A stretch of DNA of 64,000 nucleotides from a virus: the IMG/VR virus record IMGVR_UViG_3300050821_024084, positions 37,022 through 101,021 of that record, one strand, 5' to 3'. Of this stretch, positions 33,134 to 39,140 are shown in pieces (within the stretch, counting starts at the first letter, position 1; each line of letters opens with the position of its first letter). A program made the position numbers and the translations under genes. The notes beneath the pieces are model-generated. The model was not told where the DNA came from, did no database searches, and was given only the letters and a program-made list of their open reading frames with translations.

Positions 33134-33194
33134 GCGCCCAGTATAGCAGGACAAACGTAAACGACTACAGCCACGCACCACTCAGGGAGGACTC

Positions 33195-35996
33195 GTGGCA
33201 ACGACACTGACCGACAGTGGTGAGCTGACCTTTCTCAGTTTCCCTATCGAGAAGACCGAGGAAACAGCCGACGGCGACGTCATCGTCTGGGGGAAGGCCA
33301 CTGACAGCACGGTGGACTCTGACGGGCAGATCGTCGATGCTGCCTGGTCGGCGAAGGCGATCGCGGAGTGGCTGCCTATCGGTAACGTTCGCGTTCAGCA
33401 TCAGGCTCAGCGTGACCCGGCCGGCAAGGCCATAGATGCATCCTACGGCAGCGACGCGCACTATGTCAAGTCCCTGATCGTCGAGCCGGTTGCCAAGGAG
33501 CTGGTCAAGAAAGGTGTGCTGACCGCCTACTCGGTCGGCATCGCGCGTCCGGTCATCGAGCCGGATATCAGCGGCAAGGCACGCGGCGGGATCATCAAGG
33601 GCGGCAAGCTGGTCGAGCTGTCACTGGTGGACCGGCCCGCGAACAAGAACTGCGGTATCCAGCTCGTCAAGTCCGAGGGTGACGCCGGCCCCGAGTGGAC
33701 CGGCAAGGTCTGGGGAGACGAGGAGCTGCTCACCAAGGCTGCTGTGACCGAGCCCGCTGAGGACAGCGAGACCGAAGATGAGCCGACCCCGCCGTCAGCC
33801 TCGGCGGAAACTCAGCCGACCGTCGGCAAGTCCGTGACGATTGAGCTGCCGGAGGACGTGTCCGTGGCGTTCACGCCACGTGATCTGGAGAAGATGCTGA
33901 CGCGCCGGGGAGCTGCACCCGTCCCGGATACGGAAAAGCGCGACTTCGACCCGAACGTGGGGACGCACGGCACTGATCGCGACGCGATGTCCGGCTCGGA
34001 CTTCGCAGGCCGGGACCGGTCGTTCCCGATACATGATCAGTCCGACGTCTCCGACGCGCTCCAGTCTATCGGCCGGGCGGGCTCGGACAACTATGATGCT
34101 GCCACGCTGCGCGCGAACATCAAGCGGATCGCGCGCCGGAAGGGATTCTCCGTGCCGGGAGACTCGGATTCAGATAAGCCCAAGAAGAAGGCCAGCAAAA
34201 GCGAGGATGCCCCGGTGCTGACCGAGGAGCTGCTGGAGGCGATCATGAAGACCGTCTCCTGCGACATGTGCAAGGGCACCGGCAAGGTGGATGGCAAGTC
34301 GTGCCCGTCGTGCATGACCAAGGGCATGAACCGGATGGACGCCGATGACCACGACGACGACTCCGACGCTGATGAAGACGACAAGGGCGCGGACAAGGCG
34401 GCCAAGAAGCCCAAGGGCAAGAAGCTGCCCCCCTGGCTGAACAAGCCGGATGGCAAGGGCGACAACGACGCTGACAGCGACTCCAGGAGCGACAAGGGCG
34501 GCACGCCAGCCGATGGCGTGACCGGCATGCATGCCGAGCCTGCGCCCGTGCACCGGGAGCCGGACGGATCCGACATCGAGTCGTTCGAGAAGGACGCGAG
34601 CCTGAGCGACGGCGACAACGAGAAGCCGTCCCGGCTGGAGTCGCAGATCGAGGGCAAGCTAGAGCGCGACGCTGTGCTGCACTTCAAGTCACTAGGTGTT
34701 GATCACCAGCTCGGCGTCCTGCACGATCTGTGCTGCCCCGCCTACGCTCCGGAGGACGTGGCGAAGGCGCACCCGGGCTCGGACTTCGCGAACATCGACC
34801 TGGAGTGGTTCGCTCGCAAGGCGATGGACCTGGCGGCAGGCGGCACGCTGGCGGAGGCATCCCGGGCGACCCTGGCCTGGACGCAGGCCCGGACGCTCAA
34901 GACCCTGACGGCTGGCCAGATGGCAGAGCTCCAGGCGGAGGCGCACAAGGCATTCCGGGATGCGAATCCTGGTCCCGGCAGCGCCCCGGTACCTGGCTGT
35001 GTCAGCCCCGAGAAGTTCCACCGACCCTATCTCACGGCGGGACACGCGGCAGAATCGGCCAGCGGGCACGCCGACGGACCGAGCGCGACCATCCCGTCTG
35101 GTCAGATCCACGCCGAGCAGTTCGGGCGCGGCTTCATCTCCGACGGGCATGCGGCGGATTCCCCGGCGAACAAGGGCAGCGTCCCGCAGAGCGTGGACTA
35201 CGTGCCGGTCGTCCGGGAGAACGCGCAGGCGGCGATGCGCGCGATGCACGATCACGTCGCGCAGACTTTCCCGGATGTGTGCCCCATGGAGATGTCCCGG
35301 GATGAGCACACGGTCATGTCGAATCCGGTTCCGGTTCCGGGTGGCACGCCTGCGACCAGCGCCGCACGCATCGGGCAGGTGCACAAGACGGAGGACGCCG
35401 ACGAGCAGATCGAGAAGCTGCTTGCCGAGGCTGAGCTGGAGAAGGCGCAGAAGAAGATGCGCAAGAAGCTCGGCAAGAAGGTCCTCGCCGGCAAGATGAC
35501 AGTTGACGAGGCCCGGTCCAGGCTGGGCCGGACCGTCACGCAGAAGGCGGAGGAGCCGGAGCCTGACGTGCAGAAGGCGGCTGAGACCGCACCGGTATCG
35601 CGCTGGTCTGACGGCAGTCCCGTGCCGCCTGTCTGGGTCACGAATGGCGGTGTCTCGCCTGACCTGATGAAGTCGGCCCTCGACACGGCCCTGGAGCCGC
35701 TGCTAGCCCGGCTCGGTGAGCAGGACGTCCTGCTCAGGAAGCAGGCCCAGATGCTGGACGCGCTCGCGGACCAGCCCGACCCGGCAGTCGCCCCCTTCAA
35801 GGGCCTGGCTGCCAACCCCCAGAAGATGGCTTCTGCGCGCCCGGCGGGCGCGCAGTCAGTGGCTGAGGTCGCGGAGCGGACTCAGGCCATGATGCTCCGG
35901 GAGCTGGAAACTCAGTACCGGACAGCCGCGCATCCTGCGGAGCGGGAAGCGGCGTTTCGTTCCATGATGAAACTACGAGGTCTGAATACGCAGTAA
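33195..35996 (+). CDS. Prohead protease/scaffold fusion
   Basis: DSDGQIVD, VRVQH, AYSVG, ELSLVDRPAN, then long acidic/coiled region. Confidence 0.88.
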   Translation: MATTLTDSGELTFLSFPIEKTEETADGDVIVWGKATDSTVDSDGQIVDAAWSAKAIAEWLPIGNVRVQHQAQRDPAGKAIDASYGSDAHYVKSLIVEPVAKELVKKGVLTAYSVGIARPVIEPDISGKARGGIIKGGKLVELSLVDRPANKNCGIQLVKSEGDAGPEWTGKVWGDEELLTKAAVTEPAEDSETEDEPTPPSASAETQPTVGKSVTIELPEDVSVAFTPRDLEKMLTRRGAAPVPDTEKRDFDPNVGTHGTDRDAMSGSDFAGRDRSFPIHDQSDVSDALQSIGRAGSDNYDAATLRANIKRIARRKGFSVPGDSDSDKPKKKASKSEDAPVLTEELLEAIMKTVSCDMCKGTGKVDGKSCPSCMTKGMNRMDADDHDDDSDADEDDKGADKAAKKPKGKKLPPWLNKPDGKGDNDADSDSRSDKGGTPADGVTGMHAEPAPVHREPDGSDIESFEKDASLSDGDNEKPSRLESQIEGKLERDAVLHFKSLGVDHQLGVLHDLCCPAYAPEDVAKAHPGSDFANIDLEWFARKAMDLAAGGTLAEASRATLAWTQARTLKTLTAGQMAELQAEAHKAFRDANPGPGSAPVPGCVSPEKFHRPYLTAGHAAESASGHADGPSATIPSGQIHAEQFGRGFISDGHAADSPANKGSVPQSVDYVPVVRENAQAAMRAMHDHVAQTFPDVCPMEMSRDEHTVMSNPVPVPGGTPATSAARIGQVHKTEDADEQIEKLLAEAELEKAQKKMRKKLGKKVLAGKMTVDEARSRLGRTVTQKAEEPEPDVQKAAETAPVSRWSDGSPVPPVWVTNGGVSPDLMKSALDTALEPLLARLGEQDVLLRKQAQMLDALADQPDPAVAPFKGLAANPQKMASARPAGAQSVAEVAERTQAMMLRELETQYRTAAHPAEREAAFRSMMKLRGLNTQ

Positions 35997-36017: not shown

Positions 36018-39000
36018 GTGGCGGACATTCTCACGGAAAGCGCCCCGCCCGCAGCGGGTCCGGGCGATCTCAGCCAGCCATCTCGCGAGGTGGCGGTCAT
36101 GGCGAACCGGTATTCGACGACCGGTGACGTCATCAAGGCACGCATGCCCGAGCTAGTCAAGGGCGCGGGCTATGCCCTCGGGGAGAACGCTCCCCTGAAC
36201 GACAACATGGAGATCCTCACCCGGGCGCATCAGGCGACCCTGGACCTGCGGACGGAGACGTATCGCGGGTACACGGACAAGCCGTCCGTGGTCAAGGGGA
36301 TGAACGGCGACTTCCTGGGTCAGCGCGGCTACCTGAAGACGGCGCTGACCGCTCCGTCCATCCAGGAGCAGATGCAGCAGCTCGTCGGCATGCTGCCGGG
36401 CGGCGCGGATGCGCTGAAGTCGTTCACTGCTGGGAACCTTGGGATCGGGTCTGTTTATGGACTCGTTCCTTTCGACCTCAATGGGGTCCTCGCACGGTAA
36501 CGTGCGTGTCCTCCGCTTCGTGAAGAAAATGCCTTGCACCTTCACGGCTGATCTCAAGCGGAGGGATCTCCACTCGGTAACGAGTGTGATCAAACCACGA
36601 GAATTGCTGGGACATCTCGCAGGCACATACGCTACAGCGTGACGTAAAAACGTGAGCGCGACAGCTAAAAAGTTATGTGACAGAGACAATCAGCAGCCGA
36701 GCCCGCCTGATTCGTTCGACGGGAAGGTTCAACGACTATGTACGTGGCTCCTCATGACGAGGATGAAGATATAGTCTGACCTCACGTGAGAGCGTGAGAG
36801 GCCAGCAGAAATGACTGGCCCCGCCGTTTATGCGCGGTGAGTAACAACGTGATCCGGTCTACACAGTATTTCGCAACAAACTGCCCCGTCCGCCCGGACA
36901 GGGTACCGCTCGTCAGGCGAAGGTCTTCACAGGTGTCAGTGGCTCTCAGACCGGCGGTCAGGGCATCATTGACATCTCGATTCCTGAGCTGGTGCAGTCC
37001 GGCGGCTCGCTGTCCTCGACGGCGTGGCCGCTGAACCTGCCTCCGTCGGGATCGCAGACCGAGGTTGATCTCAACATTCCCTATCGCTTCTTCGGTCTCA
37101 CAGAATCACTGTCCTGGCTGGCGCAGTTCGCCGGGCAGGGCTTCGAGGACATCAGCGCACTAGCTAACCTGATCCTGCTGCAAGAAATGATGATGGGTGT
37201 TTTATCCGGATATGTCCGGTTTCGCCCCCTCACTCGGTGACGAGTGAGTGATAACCACGAGAATTGCTGGGACACCCGTATCACCCTGTTGCACCACAAC
37301 GTGGCCCGAAAGGACGAGCGTGACGGTCTGAAAAGCAGCAGGCAGGGGCAATCAGCAGCCGAGCCCACCTGGATTCGCTCCGATGGGAAGGTTCAGAGAC
37401 TATGTACGTGGAGTCTTAGCGCCAGTAATCTGATGAAGCTGCTTCAGCTTTTCTGGCAAGCACGAGGGTGACGTCATCGTACATCCATCGCACCGCTGGT
37501 GCATCGCGCTTGCTTCCGAGCAGATAGTGATACTTCTTGTCCTTACCGGCCATCCTGCGTCGCAGGACACATCCGGTATGCCGCTCGATGATGGCGGCAG
37601 TGCTCTCAAGCACAGACGGTGTGCCTATCAGCCCGATCATCCGCTTGTCGATAGATCCGTCTCCGTCCCAGAGCCCGCGCAGAAGATGGCGTTCCAGCTC
37701 GGGGGCCACAGACGGGAGAGTAGCGGAGTAGCTTTTGTCATGGTGGAGTCCTAGCTTATTCAGGTCCCTTACCATCTTCACGCTGTAGAGCGTGAGTCGC
37801 ATCATCCCGTCCTTCTGAGGGGTGAGCGGTGCGTCATGGTTAAGTTCCCGCGCCACTGCGCGGAGTAGCTCAGCATCGTTCTCTTTCAGGCTGATCTGAA
37901 TTTTGCGACCGTCGTTAGTGACGTGGCCGTCTGCTAGAATAAGCCCGAGGATATACGCCTTCTCGGCGGTGTCTATCCGGGTGAAGTAATCACGGTCTGT
38001 TGTCCATTTCGGCGGTGGGCTCATCTGTACAGTATAGCGCGCTGAGATTATGATATAGTCCGGTCTCATGTGAGAGCATGAGAGGCATGCAGAAATGACA
38101 TGCCCGCTCGCTGTCAAGCGAGAGGTAACAGAACGGAAGAGTATCAGCTCCTGGCTGGTACCTCGACAGCACTTTCTGCTCCGGCAACTCCGACTCTCAC
38201 GGCCCGGACGGCTGGCTCGAACGAGACGGCGCTGTCCACGGACGGCTCCGCCACGTACGTGACCGTCACGGCCACGAACTACTTCGGCGAGACGGTTGCC
38301 AGCACGGCAGCTACCCTCACCCCGACCACGGGGCAGGTCGTTGACGTGACCATCGTCCCGGTCACCGGGGCGCAGTCCTACAACATCTACGTCGGCACGG
38401 CCAACGCCCGGACCACGCTGTACCGCATGGCGACTGGCGTCGGCGGGCAGCGCTACACGCTTCAGGGGACCGCTCCCAGCTCGGGTGCGAACTCGCCGGC
38501 GGCGGACACCGGCACGGGCACCAACACCCGGCTGGAGGGCCTGATCCCGACGCTGACCGGCAAGTCGGCGCAGACCACGGTCTACCCCAACGGGTGGCAG
38601 GGCGGCTACTACCAGCCGTCTGTCGGCACGCACCTGTCGTACAACGCGATCTACACGGCGCTGGATGCGCTGTGGGAGTCGGTATTCACGAACCCGGGAG
38701 CATTCCGGGCGGATCCGGCGGAGATCGCCGGTGACGGCGGCGACATCATGCGGCTGTCCACCGACGTCATCAACCAGGGCTCGGCGACGAACTACCGCCT
38801 GTGGCTCGACCAGGCGGACGTCTCTGGCGTCCGGGTCGGCGCGGCGGTGTCGGAGTTCCAGAACCCGATCACCCGGTCGGTGCTCAAGCTCGTCGTGCAT
38901 CCGTGGATGACGCAGGGCACCGCGATGCTCATGACGTACCAGCTCCCGCAGACGTGGACGAACGTCGCGAATGCGTGGGAGATGACGTGCGTGCAGGACT

Positions 39001-39140
39001 ACGTCTCAATCGCGTGGCCCGTCATTGACGCCACGTTCCGCTACTCGATCTTCCTGTACGCCGCGCTGTGCGGCTACGCTCCGTACTACTCGGGGATTCT
39101 TCAGGGGCTGCAAGTAAGCGATACCACCCCCTACCAGTAA
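36018..39140 (+). CDS. Major capsid protein, join(36018..36478,36532..36554,36852..37198,38136..39140), 611 aa
   Basis: Splicing restores a continuous frame ...PFDL/LAPSRLI/YPVYTVFRNKLPR...EMMMG/EEYQLL...; lies after the protease. Confidence 0.85.
36479..36531 (+). mobile_element. 53-nt core-less group I-type mini-intron
   Basis: P1 with U.G at the 5' splice site, P10, GNRA-capped P2, terminal G, in-frame TAA; removal restores the frame. Confidence 0.75.
36555..36851 (+). mobile_element. Group I intron A (297 nt, no ORF)
   Basis: P AATTGCTGGGA, Q AATCAGCAG, R GTTCAACGACTA, S AAGATATAGTC; P1/P10; omega-G 36851. Confidence 0.93.
37199..38135 (+). mobile_element. Group I intron B (937 nt) with antisense homing endonuclease in P8
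   Basis: P, Q, R (GTTCAGAGACTA) and S (ATGATATAGTC) elements; P1 GGGU/GCCC; omega-G 38135. Confidence 0.93.
37416..38024 (-). CDS. LAGLIDADG homing endonuclease
   Basis: AYILGLILADG and LRGLWDGDGSI; TATACT-N6-ATG leaderless start. Confidence 0.92.
   Translation of the reverse strand: MSPPPKWTTDRDYFTRIDTAEKAYILGLILADGHVTNDGRKIQISLKENDAELLRAVARELNHDAPLTPQKDGMMRLTLYSVKMVRDLNKLGLHHDKSYSATLPSVAPELERHLLRGLWDGDGSIDKRMIGLIGTPSVLESTAAIIERHTGCVLRRRMAGKDKKYHYLLGSKRDAPAVRWMYDDVTLVLARKAEAASSDYWR

What the first reader, a model, noticed from the sequence alone, without database searches (positions are those of the whole stretch)
36470..36860. Core-less 53-nt mini-intron and 23-nt micro-exon that appear to share one group I ribozyme core in the major capsid gene
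Seen in sequence: the capsid frame is restored only if both 36479-36531 and 36555-36851 are removed, giving PFDL-LAPSRLI-YPVY. Keeping the first segment leaves a TAA at 36498-36500, and skipping the 23-nt exon shifts the frame. The 53-nt segment has the substrate parts of a group I intron: P1 (GACCU/GGGUC, with U.G at the splice site), a P10-like CAA/UUG pairing, a GUAA-capped P2 like those of introns A and B, and an A-rich end with terminal G. It has no P3-P9 core. Its UCCUCCGCUU (36509-36518) is complementary to AAGCGGAGGG (36556-36565), the internal guide sequence of intron A. Inference: this helix blocks intron A's own P1/P10 and presents the mini-intron's P1 to intron A's core. One ribozyme would then perform two ordered splicing events, mini-intron first. 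I know of no description of such a dependent satellite intron; it could also gate capsid expression.
Basis: partly seen in the sequence, partly recalled or inferred. Interest (0 to 1): 0.95.

Follow-up and report, generated by a model that had tools for sequence, protein, structure and literature searches.

The report
Core-less mini-intron beside capsid intron
A phage head-protein gene carries a 53-base piece of a self-splicing (group I) intron that has kept its splice-site helices but has no catalytic part, so it probably has to be cut out by the complete intron that starts 23 bases downstream, which has not been shown for any natural intron.

Summary
Removing 36479-36531 and 36555-36851 gives PFDL-LAPSRLI-YPVYTV. 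This string is nearly invariant in 23 uninterrupted homologues. It also stands uninterrupted in a sister strain whose exon 1 is 154/154 identical. The 23-nt micro-exon is therefore real.

The 53-nt segment is the P1-P2 module of the local group I intron family: a U.G at the 5' splice site, a 6-bp P2 with a GUAA loop, and a terminal G. It has no P3-P9 core. It carries three compensatory pair changes relative to intron A's P1-P2.

In predicted folds this helix beats intron A's own P1 by about 8-11 kcal/mol.

That intron A's core excises the mini-intron is the best reading (about 0.5), but it is inferred. No RNA data could be obtained, and no second DNA copy could be retrieved. The main rival (about 0.27) is a recent core deletion that killed the gene.

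This scan had already noted similar core-less mini-introns on other DNA at least ten times. I could not check those notes. Published partial precedents are the 56-81-nt degenerate fungal rDNA introns and the Twort tandem introns.

The parts
36018..36478 (+). Exon 1 of the putative major capsid gene (GTG start; ends ..VPFD + CT of a Leu codon)
   Evidence: It is 69-80% identical to the N-termini of uninterrupted homologues and 154/154 identical to P0244.
36479..36531 (+). 53-nt core-less mini-intron (boundaries 36480-36532 give the same product)
   Evidence: Removing it restores the invariant FDL-LAPS junction. Rfam finds no core in it. It carries TAA 36498-500 in the exon-1 frame.
36474..36488 (+). 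P1 of the mini-intron: GACCU / GGGUC with U36478.G36484 at the 5' splice site, loop CAAUG
   Evidence: Sequence. Present in the minimum-free-energy folds. C76-G86 here against U52-A66 in intron A's P1 is a compensatory change.
36491..36506 (+). P2 of the mini-intron: CGCACG-GUAA-CGUGCG
   Evidence: direct repeat D2, 73% identical to intron A's P1-P2, 36563-88. It shows two compensatory pair changes against intron A's CACUCG-GUAA-CGAGUG. Other family members have the same layout.
36509..36525 (+). 5' arm of the tether helix (UCCUCCGCUU + CGUGAAG)
   Evidence: It pairs with 36556-65 (10 bp, one U.G) and with 36540-46 (7 bp).
36532..36554 (+). 23-nt micro-exon C-CTT-GCA-CCT-TCA-CGG-CTG-ATC-T, encoding (L)LAPSRLI(Y). 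36540-46 is part of the 3' arm of the tether.
   Evidence: It uses rare A/T-ending codons in a gene set with GC3 of 0.81.
36555..36851 (+). Intron A, a complete ORF-less group I intron (297 nt). P1 36550-54/36564-68; guide sequence 36556-68; P2 36571-86; P3 36595-99/36743-47; P4 36605-10/36690-95; P7 36734-39/36771-76; P8 36749-63; P9 36781-98; terminal G36851.
   Evidence: Rfam RF00028, 65.7 bits. An orthologue sits at the same site (ATCT|) in L016/L276. Helix coordinates were read from the sequence and the Rfam alignment.
36852..37198 (+). Exon 2 (AT-CCG-GTC.. to ..ATG-GGT)
   Evidence: It is 99/101 identical to P0244.
37199..38135 (+). Intron B, a group I intron (937 nt) with L2 = GUGA. It is a possible but less likely alternative helper.
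   Evidence: Rfam, 42 bits, E = 7.9e-9, full model length. The junction MMMG|EEYQ matches homologues.
37416..38024 (-). LAGLIDADG homing endonuclease gene inside intron B, on the opposite strand
   Evidence: Pfam PF14528, E = 6.1e-12. ORF.
38136..39140 (+). Exon 3 of the capsid gene

Best explanation
The 53-nt segment is a non-autonomous group I intron. It is what remains of a full intron of the local family that once sat at the FDL|L site. It kept the substrate module (P1 with U.G, P2 with a GUAA loop) and a 3'-terminal G, and it lost P3-P9.

Proposed mechanism:
1. The mini-intron is removed at the RNA level by the catalytic core of intron A, 23 nt downstream.
2. In the precursor, a 17-bp tether (36509-25 with 36540-46 and 36556-65) ties the mini-intron to the micro-exon and to intron A's guide sequence. 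This prevents intron A's own P1 and P10 from forming.
3. The mini-intron's P1-P2 then takes the place of intron A's P1-P2 on the core. An exogenous G attacks after U36478.
4. G36531, which lies in the apical loop of the tether, occupies the G-site, and exon 1 is joined to the micro-exon.
5. Once the tether is undone, probably by ribosomes reading the new exon 1-micro-exon junction, intron A forms GAUCU/GGAUC plus UCCG/CGGA and splices normally.

A variant I cannot separate from this: intron A splices first, and its excised RNA stays bound through the same 10-nt guide complement and acts in trans.

Shown: the anatomy, the predicted product, and the predicted stability of the tether. Inferred: every catalytic step and the order of events.
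For: (1) Only the two-removal product matches the invariant PFDLLAPSRLIYPVYTV of 23 homologues and of a sister strain with an identical exon 1. It uses canonical group I boundaries: a U.G in P1 and a terminal G.

(2) The element aligns with the P1-P2 module of intron A and of L016. P1 is 5 bp, the joiner is 2 nt, P2 is 6 bp with a GUAA loop, followed by UGU/UGA. Three pair changes are compensated on both strands. The module therefore descends from a working intron of this family, and its L2 loop equals intron A's (GUAA) and differs from intron B's (GUGA).

(3) The same intron start at the same site (FDL|xGVLAx-stop, that is, the P1 3' strand plus a P2 whose GNRA loop gives the stop) closes exon-1 ORFs in at least seven other clusters or members, at 57-69% exon identity.

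(4) The tether helix is in the minimum-free-energy and centroid folds. It is 8-11 kcal/mol better than a fold forced to form intron A's P1, and it is rarely matched by shuffles. Its bulge leaves exactly intron A's 5' splice site unpaired, and its loop presents the mini-intron's 3' splice site.

(5) The rest of the gene is intact, and the contigs carrying this allele (131,096 and 130,994 nt) match the roughly 128-135-kb genome size of related phages. This suggests a whole phage rather than a decayed one (inference).

(6) Precedent that an upstream intron's 5' part can work with a downstream intron's core: Twort orf142 and engineered tandem Tetrahymena introns form 'a single large ribozyme' (PMC10136302).

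(7) Leads only, not checked by me: earlier notes of this scan report similar mini-introns just upstream of full introns in other phages. One note reports clean excision in soil RNA.
Against:
- No second DNA copy of the 53-nt element was found. Without one there is no covariation, and no evidence that the arrangement persists over time.
- The sister strain with an identical exon 1 lacks both introns. The arrangement is therefore recent, and an unselected recent deletion cannot be excluded.
- The tether is close to a perfect inverted repeat, so a DNA-level rearrangement could have made it.
- A comparably strong duplex is found between two ordinary tandem introns in L071 when a longer window is used.
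- The released mini-intron should stay annealed (-26 to -29 kcal/mol) and keep blocking intron A.
- P10 is weak (3 bp), and I found no convincing P9.0 for G36531.
- The same hybrid ribozyme could use intron A's own terminal G and skip the micro-exon, which shifts the frame.
- IMG/VR labels the record a provirus at 88% completeness, so a dead capsid gene could persist.
Confidence: 0.5

Rival explanations
1. Dead remnant. A full intron at FDL|L recently lost its core by an internal deletion, perhaps with fold-back repair that created the inverted repeat. The 53-nt stump cannot be spliced, and the capsid gene of this provirus-labelled genome is a fresh pseudogene.
For: No ribozyme core lies in the 53 nt. 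The record is called a provirus at 88% completeness. A sister strain with an identical exon 1 lacks the element, so the state is young and decay elsewhere would not yet show. The tether is nearly a perfect inverted repeat. None of about 125 related IMG/VR capsid loci has a second mini-intron.
Against: A random deletion would have to remove the core while sparing P1, P2, the terminal G and both exon borders. A simple fold-back copy would be contiguous, but the 5' arm lacks exactly the 9 nt that hold intron A's 5' splice site. All three exons, intron A and intron B are intact. The contig length equals a full genome of this phage group. Unchecked notes of this scan describe the same layout repeatedly in other phages.
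Confidence: 0.27
2. The element is excised without intron A. Either it acts as a minimal self-splicing group I intron helped by flanking RNA, as claimed for the 56-81-nt Phialophora rDNA introns, or intron B or a host factor does the work.
For: PMC3160393 reports small introns that keep P1 and P10 plus a pairing between the intron middle and the 3' exon. These spliced in vitro only when about 300 nt of downstream RNA was included. Here 36519-25 pairs with 3'-exon bases 36540-46 in a similar way.
Against: No P7-like helix with a bulged base and a G-binding pair is present, and P2 is a perfect GNRA hairpin. Intron B's L2 (GUGA) and 8-bp P2 differ from the mini-intron's, whereas intron A's match. 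The 10-bp complement is to intron A's guide sequence specifically.
Confidence: 0.06
3. Translational bypass. The ribosome takes off at GCA 36492-94, inside the hairpin and two codons before UAA, and lands on GCA 36536-38. It skips 41 nt, in the manner of phage T4 gene 60 (established knowledge, not tested here).
For: The take-off and landing codons are identical. A stable hairpin sits at the take-off site with a stop codon in its loop. The product has no stop.
Against: The product FDL-NGV-LAPSRLI adds three residues inside a nearly invariant block, whereas splicing reproduces the block exactly. The hairpin and its stop are explained by homology to P2 and its GNRA loop in the intron family. Intron A would still have to splice while the tether helix stays in place.
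Confidence: 0.04
4. One large intron. 36479-36849 is removed in a single event using the mini-intron's P1 and intron A's core, with G36849 as the terminal G. This gives an in-frame capsid variant, FDL-DPVY, that lacks the micro-exon.
For: The product is in frame with no stops. The fold of the whole region looks like one intron with extra P2-type helices. Exon skipping is known for Twort and Coxiella tandem introns.
Against: It deletes LAPSRLI and changes the Y, which are invariant or nearly so in all homologues. The 23 nt encode exactly these residues, which cannot be chance. The family's 3' ends place the terminal G at 36851, and that position gives a frameshift.
Confidence: 0.03

Closest known systems
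Staphylococcus phage Twort orf142 introns 2 and 3 (Landthaler and Shub 1999, as described in PMC10136302), and engineered tandem Tetrahymena introns (PMC10136302)
   Same: Two group I-type introns lie in one phage structural gene, separated by a 23-nt exon. The 5' part of the upstream intron can cooperate with the core of the downstream intron as 'a single large ribozyme'.
   Different: There both introns are complete ribozymes, and the cooperation produces exon skipping. Here the upstream element has no core at all, and the cooperation would have to include the exon.
Small degenerate group I introns (56-81 nt) in fungal SSU rDNA: Phialophora PaSSU, Porpidia, Arthonia (Harris and Rogers 2011, PMC3160393)
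   Same: These are group I derivatives far below the minimal ribozyme size. They keep P1 and P10 plus a pairing between the intron middle and the 3' exon. In vitro splicing needed about 300 nt of downstream RNA.
   Different: They lie in eukaryotic nuclear rDNA, with no neighbouring intron. They have a claimed P7 and a terminal U. The helper RNA is rRNA/ITS, not another ribozyme. Here the element has P2 instead of P7, a terminal G, and a full intron 23 nt away.
Full-length tandem introns of the same capsid family (L071, L057, L053, L058, L072, L239, L016/L276), and the mycobacteriophage LittleE capsid intron (PMC3706429)
   Same: This is the same gene family and intron family. Insertion sites cluster in residues 143-168, and micro-exons of 17-75 nt lie between the introns. 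Splicing of a capsid-gene intron was shown experimentally for LittleE.
   Different: Every one of those introns is 214 nt or longer and has its own core. Only the window's element is 53 nt.
Group III introns and mini group II introns of Euglena plastids (own knowledge, not checked here)
   Same: They are streamlined derivatives of a self-splicing intron class that lack most catalytic domains and are thought to depend on parts supplied by other introns.
   Different: They belong to a different intron class with different chemistry (lariat), they are organellar, and the helper is not an adjacent intron tied on by a helix.

Membership tests
Group I intron (the 53-nt element) | P1 helix formed by the 5' exon end and an internal guide, with a U.G wobble at the 5' splice site | tested here: met
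   GACCU (36474-78) pairs with GGGUC (36484-88), with U36478.G36484. Present in the folds.
Group I intron (the 53-nt element) | Terminal G at the 3' splice site, giving an exact exon junction | tested here: met
   G36531. The junction reproduces the invariant FDL-LAPS.
Group I intron (the 53-nt element) | P10 pairing of the 3' exon with the guide sequence | tested here: inconclusive
   Only CAA (36479-81) with UUG (36534-36), 3 bp and not adjacent to the splice site.
Group I intron (the 53-nt element) | Conserved catalytic core: P3-P8 and P4-P6 domains with the G-binding site in P7 | tested here: not met
   Only P1, P2 and 25 further nt are present. The Rfam RF00028 match starts downstream at 36540, and nothing in 36479-36531 matches any family even at E up to 5.
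Group I intron (the 53-nt element) | Self-splicing with a guanosine cofactor | not testable with these tools
   Needs in vitro transcription and splicing.
Group I intron (intron A, 36555-36851) | Match to the family covariance model above the curated threshold, with P1 U.G and a terminal G | tested here: met
   RF00028, 65.7 bits against a cut-off of 50. GAUCU/GGAUC with U36554.G36564. G36851. An orthologue sits at the same site in L016/L276.
Programmed translational bypass (T4 gene 60 type) | Matched take-off and landing codons, with a hairpin and a stop at the take-off site | tested here: met
   GCA 36492-94 and GCA 36536-38. Hairpin 36491-36506 with UAA in its loop.
Programmed translational bypass (T4 gene 60 type) | The bypass product equals the conserved protein sequence | tested here: not met
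   The product FDLNGVLAPSRLI has three extra residues inside a nearly invariant block.
Degenerate small group I introns of fungal rDNA (PMC3160393) | P1, P10, a P7 with a bulged base next to a G-C pair, and a pairing of the intron middle with the 3' exon | tested here: inconclusive
   P1 and a middle-to-3'-exon pairing (36519-25/36540-46) are present. No P7-like helix is present, and the terminal base is G rather than U.
Major capsid protein (host gene) | Recognisable capsid family or fold, and position in the head module | tested here: inconclusive
   No Pfam hit. The match is to phrog_13692, of unknown function. The AlphaFold model is poor, pLDDT 42. Supporting points: the gene follows an ORF whose N-terminus matches a head maturation protease (phrog_9427, E = 4.9e-10), and Atlas neighbours include a cluster in which 15% of members carry SU10_MCP.

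The most novel reading that the evidence does not exclude
A natural, non-autonomous group I intron. It is a 53-nt P1-P2-omegaG cassette with no ribozyme of its own. A 17-bp helix tethers it to the next intron, and that intron's catalytic core excises it, so one ribozyme carries out two exon-including splicing events on one mRNA. If the same-site elements seen only as ORF tails in at least seven other capsid lineages have the same build, this would be a recurrent class of 'satellite' introns that ride on full introns.
Probability: 0.5. Interest if true: 0.85.

Novelty: new variant of a known kind. Interest (0 to 1): 0.72.

Why it matters
Group I introns are defined by catalysing their own removal. 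A natural intron that keeps only the substrate side and borrows a neighbour's core would show several things:
- The intron's substrate and catalyst modules can separate in nature, as they do in engineered trans-splicing ribozymes.
- An intron can decay inside an essential gene without killing it.
- Expression of the most abundant virion protein then depends on one ribozyme and on an RNA helix that orders two splicing events.

There is also a practical point. Gene callers truncate this capsid gene at residue 160, and a 23-nt exon is invisible to them. The case can be tested directly with a transcript of about 500 nt.

Tried and rejected
The contigs behind P0129, P0156, P0161, P0183, P0229, P0260 and P0270 could therefore not be read.

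Searches that found nothing useful.
- The phage collection has no match by DNA or by exon-1 or exon-2 protein.
- Pattern scans for the mini-intron's 5' end gave only chance hits. These were mostly HAD-hydrolase 'FDLDGVL' motifs in viral, metagenome and genome collections.
- blastn-short of the 53 nt against all loci found no relative.
- An exhaustive protein search with a spurious 74-aa frame spanning mini-intron, micro-exon and the start of intron A gave 0 hits. The aim was to find the same arrangement called as an ORF elsewhere.
- Chained tblastn over about 125 related IMG/VR capsid loci found no second intervening segment under 200 nt.
- A permissive Rfam scan of 36300-38300 found no small ribozyme in or near the element.
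- The AlphaFold2 model of the full-length homologue P0004 had pLDDT 42, too poor for a fold search. A PDB sequence-profile search found nothing relevant.

Ideas considered and rejected.
- Simple frameshifting: the exon-1 frame closes at 36498-500, and the micro-exon frame opens only after the TGA at 36521-23.
- Archaeal-type bulge-helix-bulge splicing: no such motif is present.
- Assembly artefact: the same ORF tail is seen in separate JGI and Logan/ENA assemblies.
- Testing the L2-to-P8 receptor rule across the family: inconclusive, and several family members lack P2 altogether.
Full report
**What is in the sequence**

A gene starting at GTG 36018 reads ..GLVPFDL and then runs into NGVLAR and TAA at 36498-500. 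Downstream frames encode DPVYTVFRNK.. (from 36851) and EEYQLLAG.. (from 38136). Rfam finds a complete group I intron at 36540-36798 (65.7 bits, cut-off 50). At a permissive threshold it finds a second one at 37202-38082 (42 bits, E = 7.9e-9). Nothing matches inside 36479-36531.

**Is the micro-exon real?**

Yes. A search with exon 1 found 159 longer proteins, mostly 600-626 aa. In an alignment of 23 of them, the string PFDLLAPSRLIYP(V/M)YTVFRNK is nearly invariant.

Several products were built in a script:
- Removing 36479-36531 and 36555-36851 gives exactly GLVPFDLLAPSRLIYPVYTVFRNK with no stops.
- Removing only one of the two segments leaves stops.
- One removal, 36479-36851, shifts the frame.
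- One removal, 36479-36849, is in frame but gives FDL-DPVY and loses seven invariant residues.

The strongest single datum is P0244. It is a member of the same 90% cluster, from a 128,348-nt contig. It is 154/154 identical to exon 1 and 99/101 identical to exon 2, and it reads PFDLLAPSRLIYPVYTV without interruption. A sister strain therefore carries the very sequence that two splicing events would produce here.

**What the 53 nt are**

The segment begins with a 5-bp P1: GACCU/GGGUC, with U36478.G36484 at the splice site. There follow two bases, a perfect 6-bp hairpin closed by GUAA (36491-36506), then UGU, 22 more bases, and a terminal G36531.

Intron A starts in the same way: GAUCU/GGAUC, UC, CACUCG-GUAA-CGAGUG, UGA. 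So does its orthologue in L016: GAUCU/GGAUC, CU, CGUUCG-GUAA-CGAACG, UGU.

Between the mini-intron and intron A, one P1 pair and two P2 pairs differ on both strands and stay paired. The module therefore descends from a functional intron of this family and was fitted to its own 5' exon. Its last bases, AAAAUG, resemble the 3' end of the L016/L276 orthologue..GUAACAAAAUG. There is no room for P3-P9. The element meets the substrate-side criteria of a group I intron and fails the core criterion.

**Relatives of the element**

Exon-1 ORFs that end FDL + (N/K/D)GVLA + one residue + stop occur in P0129, P0156, P0161, P0183, P0260 (8 contigs), P0229 and P0270. Their exon identity to the window is 57-69%. 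These tails are what the same P1 3' strand, followed by a P2 closed by GUAA or GUGA, would encode. An intron with this 5' end at this site is therefore widespread.

Pattern scans of the viral, metagenome and genome collections returned only chance hits.

**The gene family is an intron hot spot**

In about 125 related IMG/VR loci I found introns after residues 143, 147, 152, 158, 159, 161, 162, 165, 168, about 237, 266, 272, 278, about 565 and about 583. Tandem pairs surround micro-exons of 17-75 nt in L016/L276, L071, L057, L239, L053, L072 and L058.

Every one of those introns is 214 nt or longer. The window's 53-nt element is the only short one. Micro-exons between tandem introns are thus ordinary here. 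The missing core is not.

**The helix**

It continues with CGUGAAG 36519-25 pairing with CUUCACG 36540-46 inside the micro-exon. The result is a 17-bp helix with two notable features:
- Its 9-nt bulge (36547-55) holds intron A's 5' splice site.
- Its 14-nt loop (36526-39) holds the mini-intron's 3' splice site.

The helix is in the minimum-free-energy and centroid structures of both a 135-nt and a 405-nt window (z = -5.07 and -4.01). Forcing intron A's P1 costs 8-11 kcal/mol relative to it.

As a bimolecular duplex it is worth -26 kcal/mol. This is reached by 4 of 5000 shuffles and by 40 of 5000 random 25-mers from the window. A similar energy appears between two ordinary tandem introns of L071 when a 45-nt window is used. 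The helix is therefore unusual, but it is not proof of function.

**How it most likely works**

The simplest reading that makes the gene functional is that the mini-intron's P1-P2 docks on intron A's core while intron A's own guide sequence is held in the tether. The core then performs both steps at U36478 and G36531. Intron A splices afterwards.

Points in favour:
- The mini-intron's L2 equals intron A's (GUAA), whereas intron B's is GUGA on an 8-bp P2.
- The tether is complementary to intron A specifically.
- Published work shows that the 5' part of one tandem group I intron can cooperate with the core of the next (PMC10136302).

Open problems:
- The excised 53-mer should remain annealed and block intron A unless it is unwound. 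Ribosomes reading the new junction are a candidate (inference).
- P10 is weak.
- The hybrid ribozyme could instead use G36851 and skip the exon.

I cannot distinguish 'in cis, mini-intron first' from 'intron A first, then acting in trans through the same 10-nt complement'.

**Rivals**

(a) A fresh, unspliceable deletion remnant.
- Points in favour: the record is labelled a provirus at 88% completeness. The sister strain shows that the arrangement is very young. The tether is nearly an inverted repeat.
- Points against: the deletion spares every splice-site element. The 5' arm omits exactly the 9 nt around intron A's splice site. All exons and both full introns are intact. The contigs (131,096 and 130,994 nt) have the size of whole genomes of this phage group.

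(b) Minimal self-splicing, as claimed for fungal rDNA mini-introns (PMC3160393). There is no P7-like element here.

(c) Ribosomal bypass from GCA 36492 to GCA 36536. This adds NGV inside an invariant block.

(d) Single large-intron excision. This loses invariant residues or shifts the frame.

**Host gene**

Pfam gives nothing, and the PHROG match is to a family of unknown function. The AlphaFold model was too poor to use. Three points support the capsid assignment, which I treat as probable:
- The gene follows an ORF whose N-terminus matches head maturation proteases.
- It is about 605 aa long.
- Its Atlas neighbours include a cluster partly annotated SU10_MCP.

**Relation to what is known**

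Published precedents:
- Introns in phage capsid genes: LittleE, PMC3706429.
- A 23-nt exon between tandem introns, with exon skipping: Twort, via PMC10136302.
- 56-81-nt degenerate group I introns that need downstream RNA: PMC3160393.

In four full-text searches I found no description of a natural core-less group I intron served by an adjacent intron.

This scan's own earlier notes report the same kind of element at least ten times on other DNA. One note claims RNA evidence, and another describes 'tether helices'. I could not check those notes. They raised my prior but are not counted as evidence.

**Verdict**

- Observation: confirmed.
- Interpretation: partly supported.
- Best explanation: a non-autonomous group I intron using intron A's core, confidence about 0.5.
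- Novelty: a new variant of a known kind.

Noticed in passing
window 37199-38135 (ORF 38024-37416, minus strand): Intron B carries a LAGLIDADG homing endonuclease gene on the strand opposite to the intron and the host gene (PF14528, E = 6.1e-12). Introns at the same MM(L/M)G|EEY site in relatives (L038, L053, L055, L059, L066, L067, L072) have no P2 hairpin at all.
   Followed up: partly
window 36430-36478, 36532-36554 and 36852-36890: The codons flanking the intron sites are mostly A/T-ending (CTT, TCT, GTT, TAT, GGA, CCT, GCA, TCA, ACA, GTA, TTT, AAA), in a gene set with GC3 of 0.81. This looks like a co-conversion tract imported with the introns from a lower-GC donor.
   Followed up: partly
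P0244 (JGI contig of 128,348 nt; DNA not readable here): A sister strain with an identical exon 1 lacks the mini-intron and intron A. Its ORF ends ..GQGFEDIS-K, which suggests a different intron after residue 263. That site is also used in L036. Intron content therefore differs between near-identical phages.
   Followed up: partly
loci L003-L082 and L237-L311 (for example L071 4382-5034, L057 4433-5036, L072 7019-7651, L239 4488-5901): This capsid family has at least 15 distinct group I intron insertion sites. Seven of them fall within residues 155-168. Tandem introns around micro-exons of 17-75 nt are frequent, and gene callers split all of these genes.
   Followed up: yes
L016 (end) and L276 (start), contig IMGVR_UViG_3300032898_000001: The two ends of this 95.5-kb contig overlap inside the orthologue of intron A, so the assembly is circular or terminally redundant. 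That intron is followed by a 17-nt micro-exon (ACCCCGTGTACACCGTC) and by a second intron of about 1.14 kb that contains an ORF.
   Followed up: partly
window 36534-36546 and 36720-36732: The micro-exon (UUGCACCUUCACG) is 11/13 complementary to the J6/7-P7 region of intron A (CGGGAAGGUUCAA). I did not assess whether this alternative pairing matters or is chance.
   Followed up: no
window 36565-36568 and 36589-36592: GAUC/GAUC can extend intron A's P2 by 4 bp in the predicted folds. This uses the same bases as the 3' strand of intron A's P1, so it is a second competitor for P1 formation.
   Followed up: no
window 33147-35996: The 949-aa ORF upstream of the capsid gene has an N-terminal head-maturation-protease-like region (phrog_9427, E = 4.9e-10), followed by a long, acidic, low-complexity stretch and a helical tail. 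This looks like a protease-scaffold fusion.
   Followed up: partly
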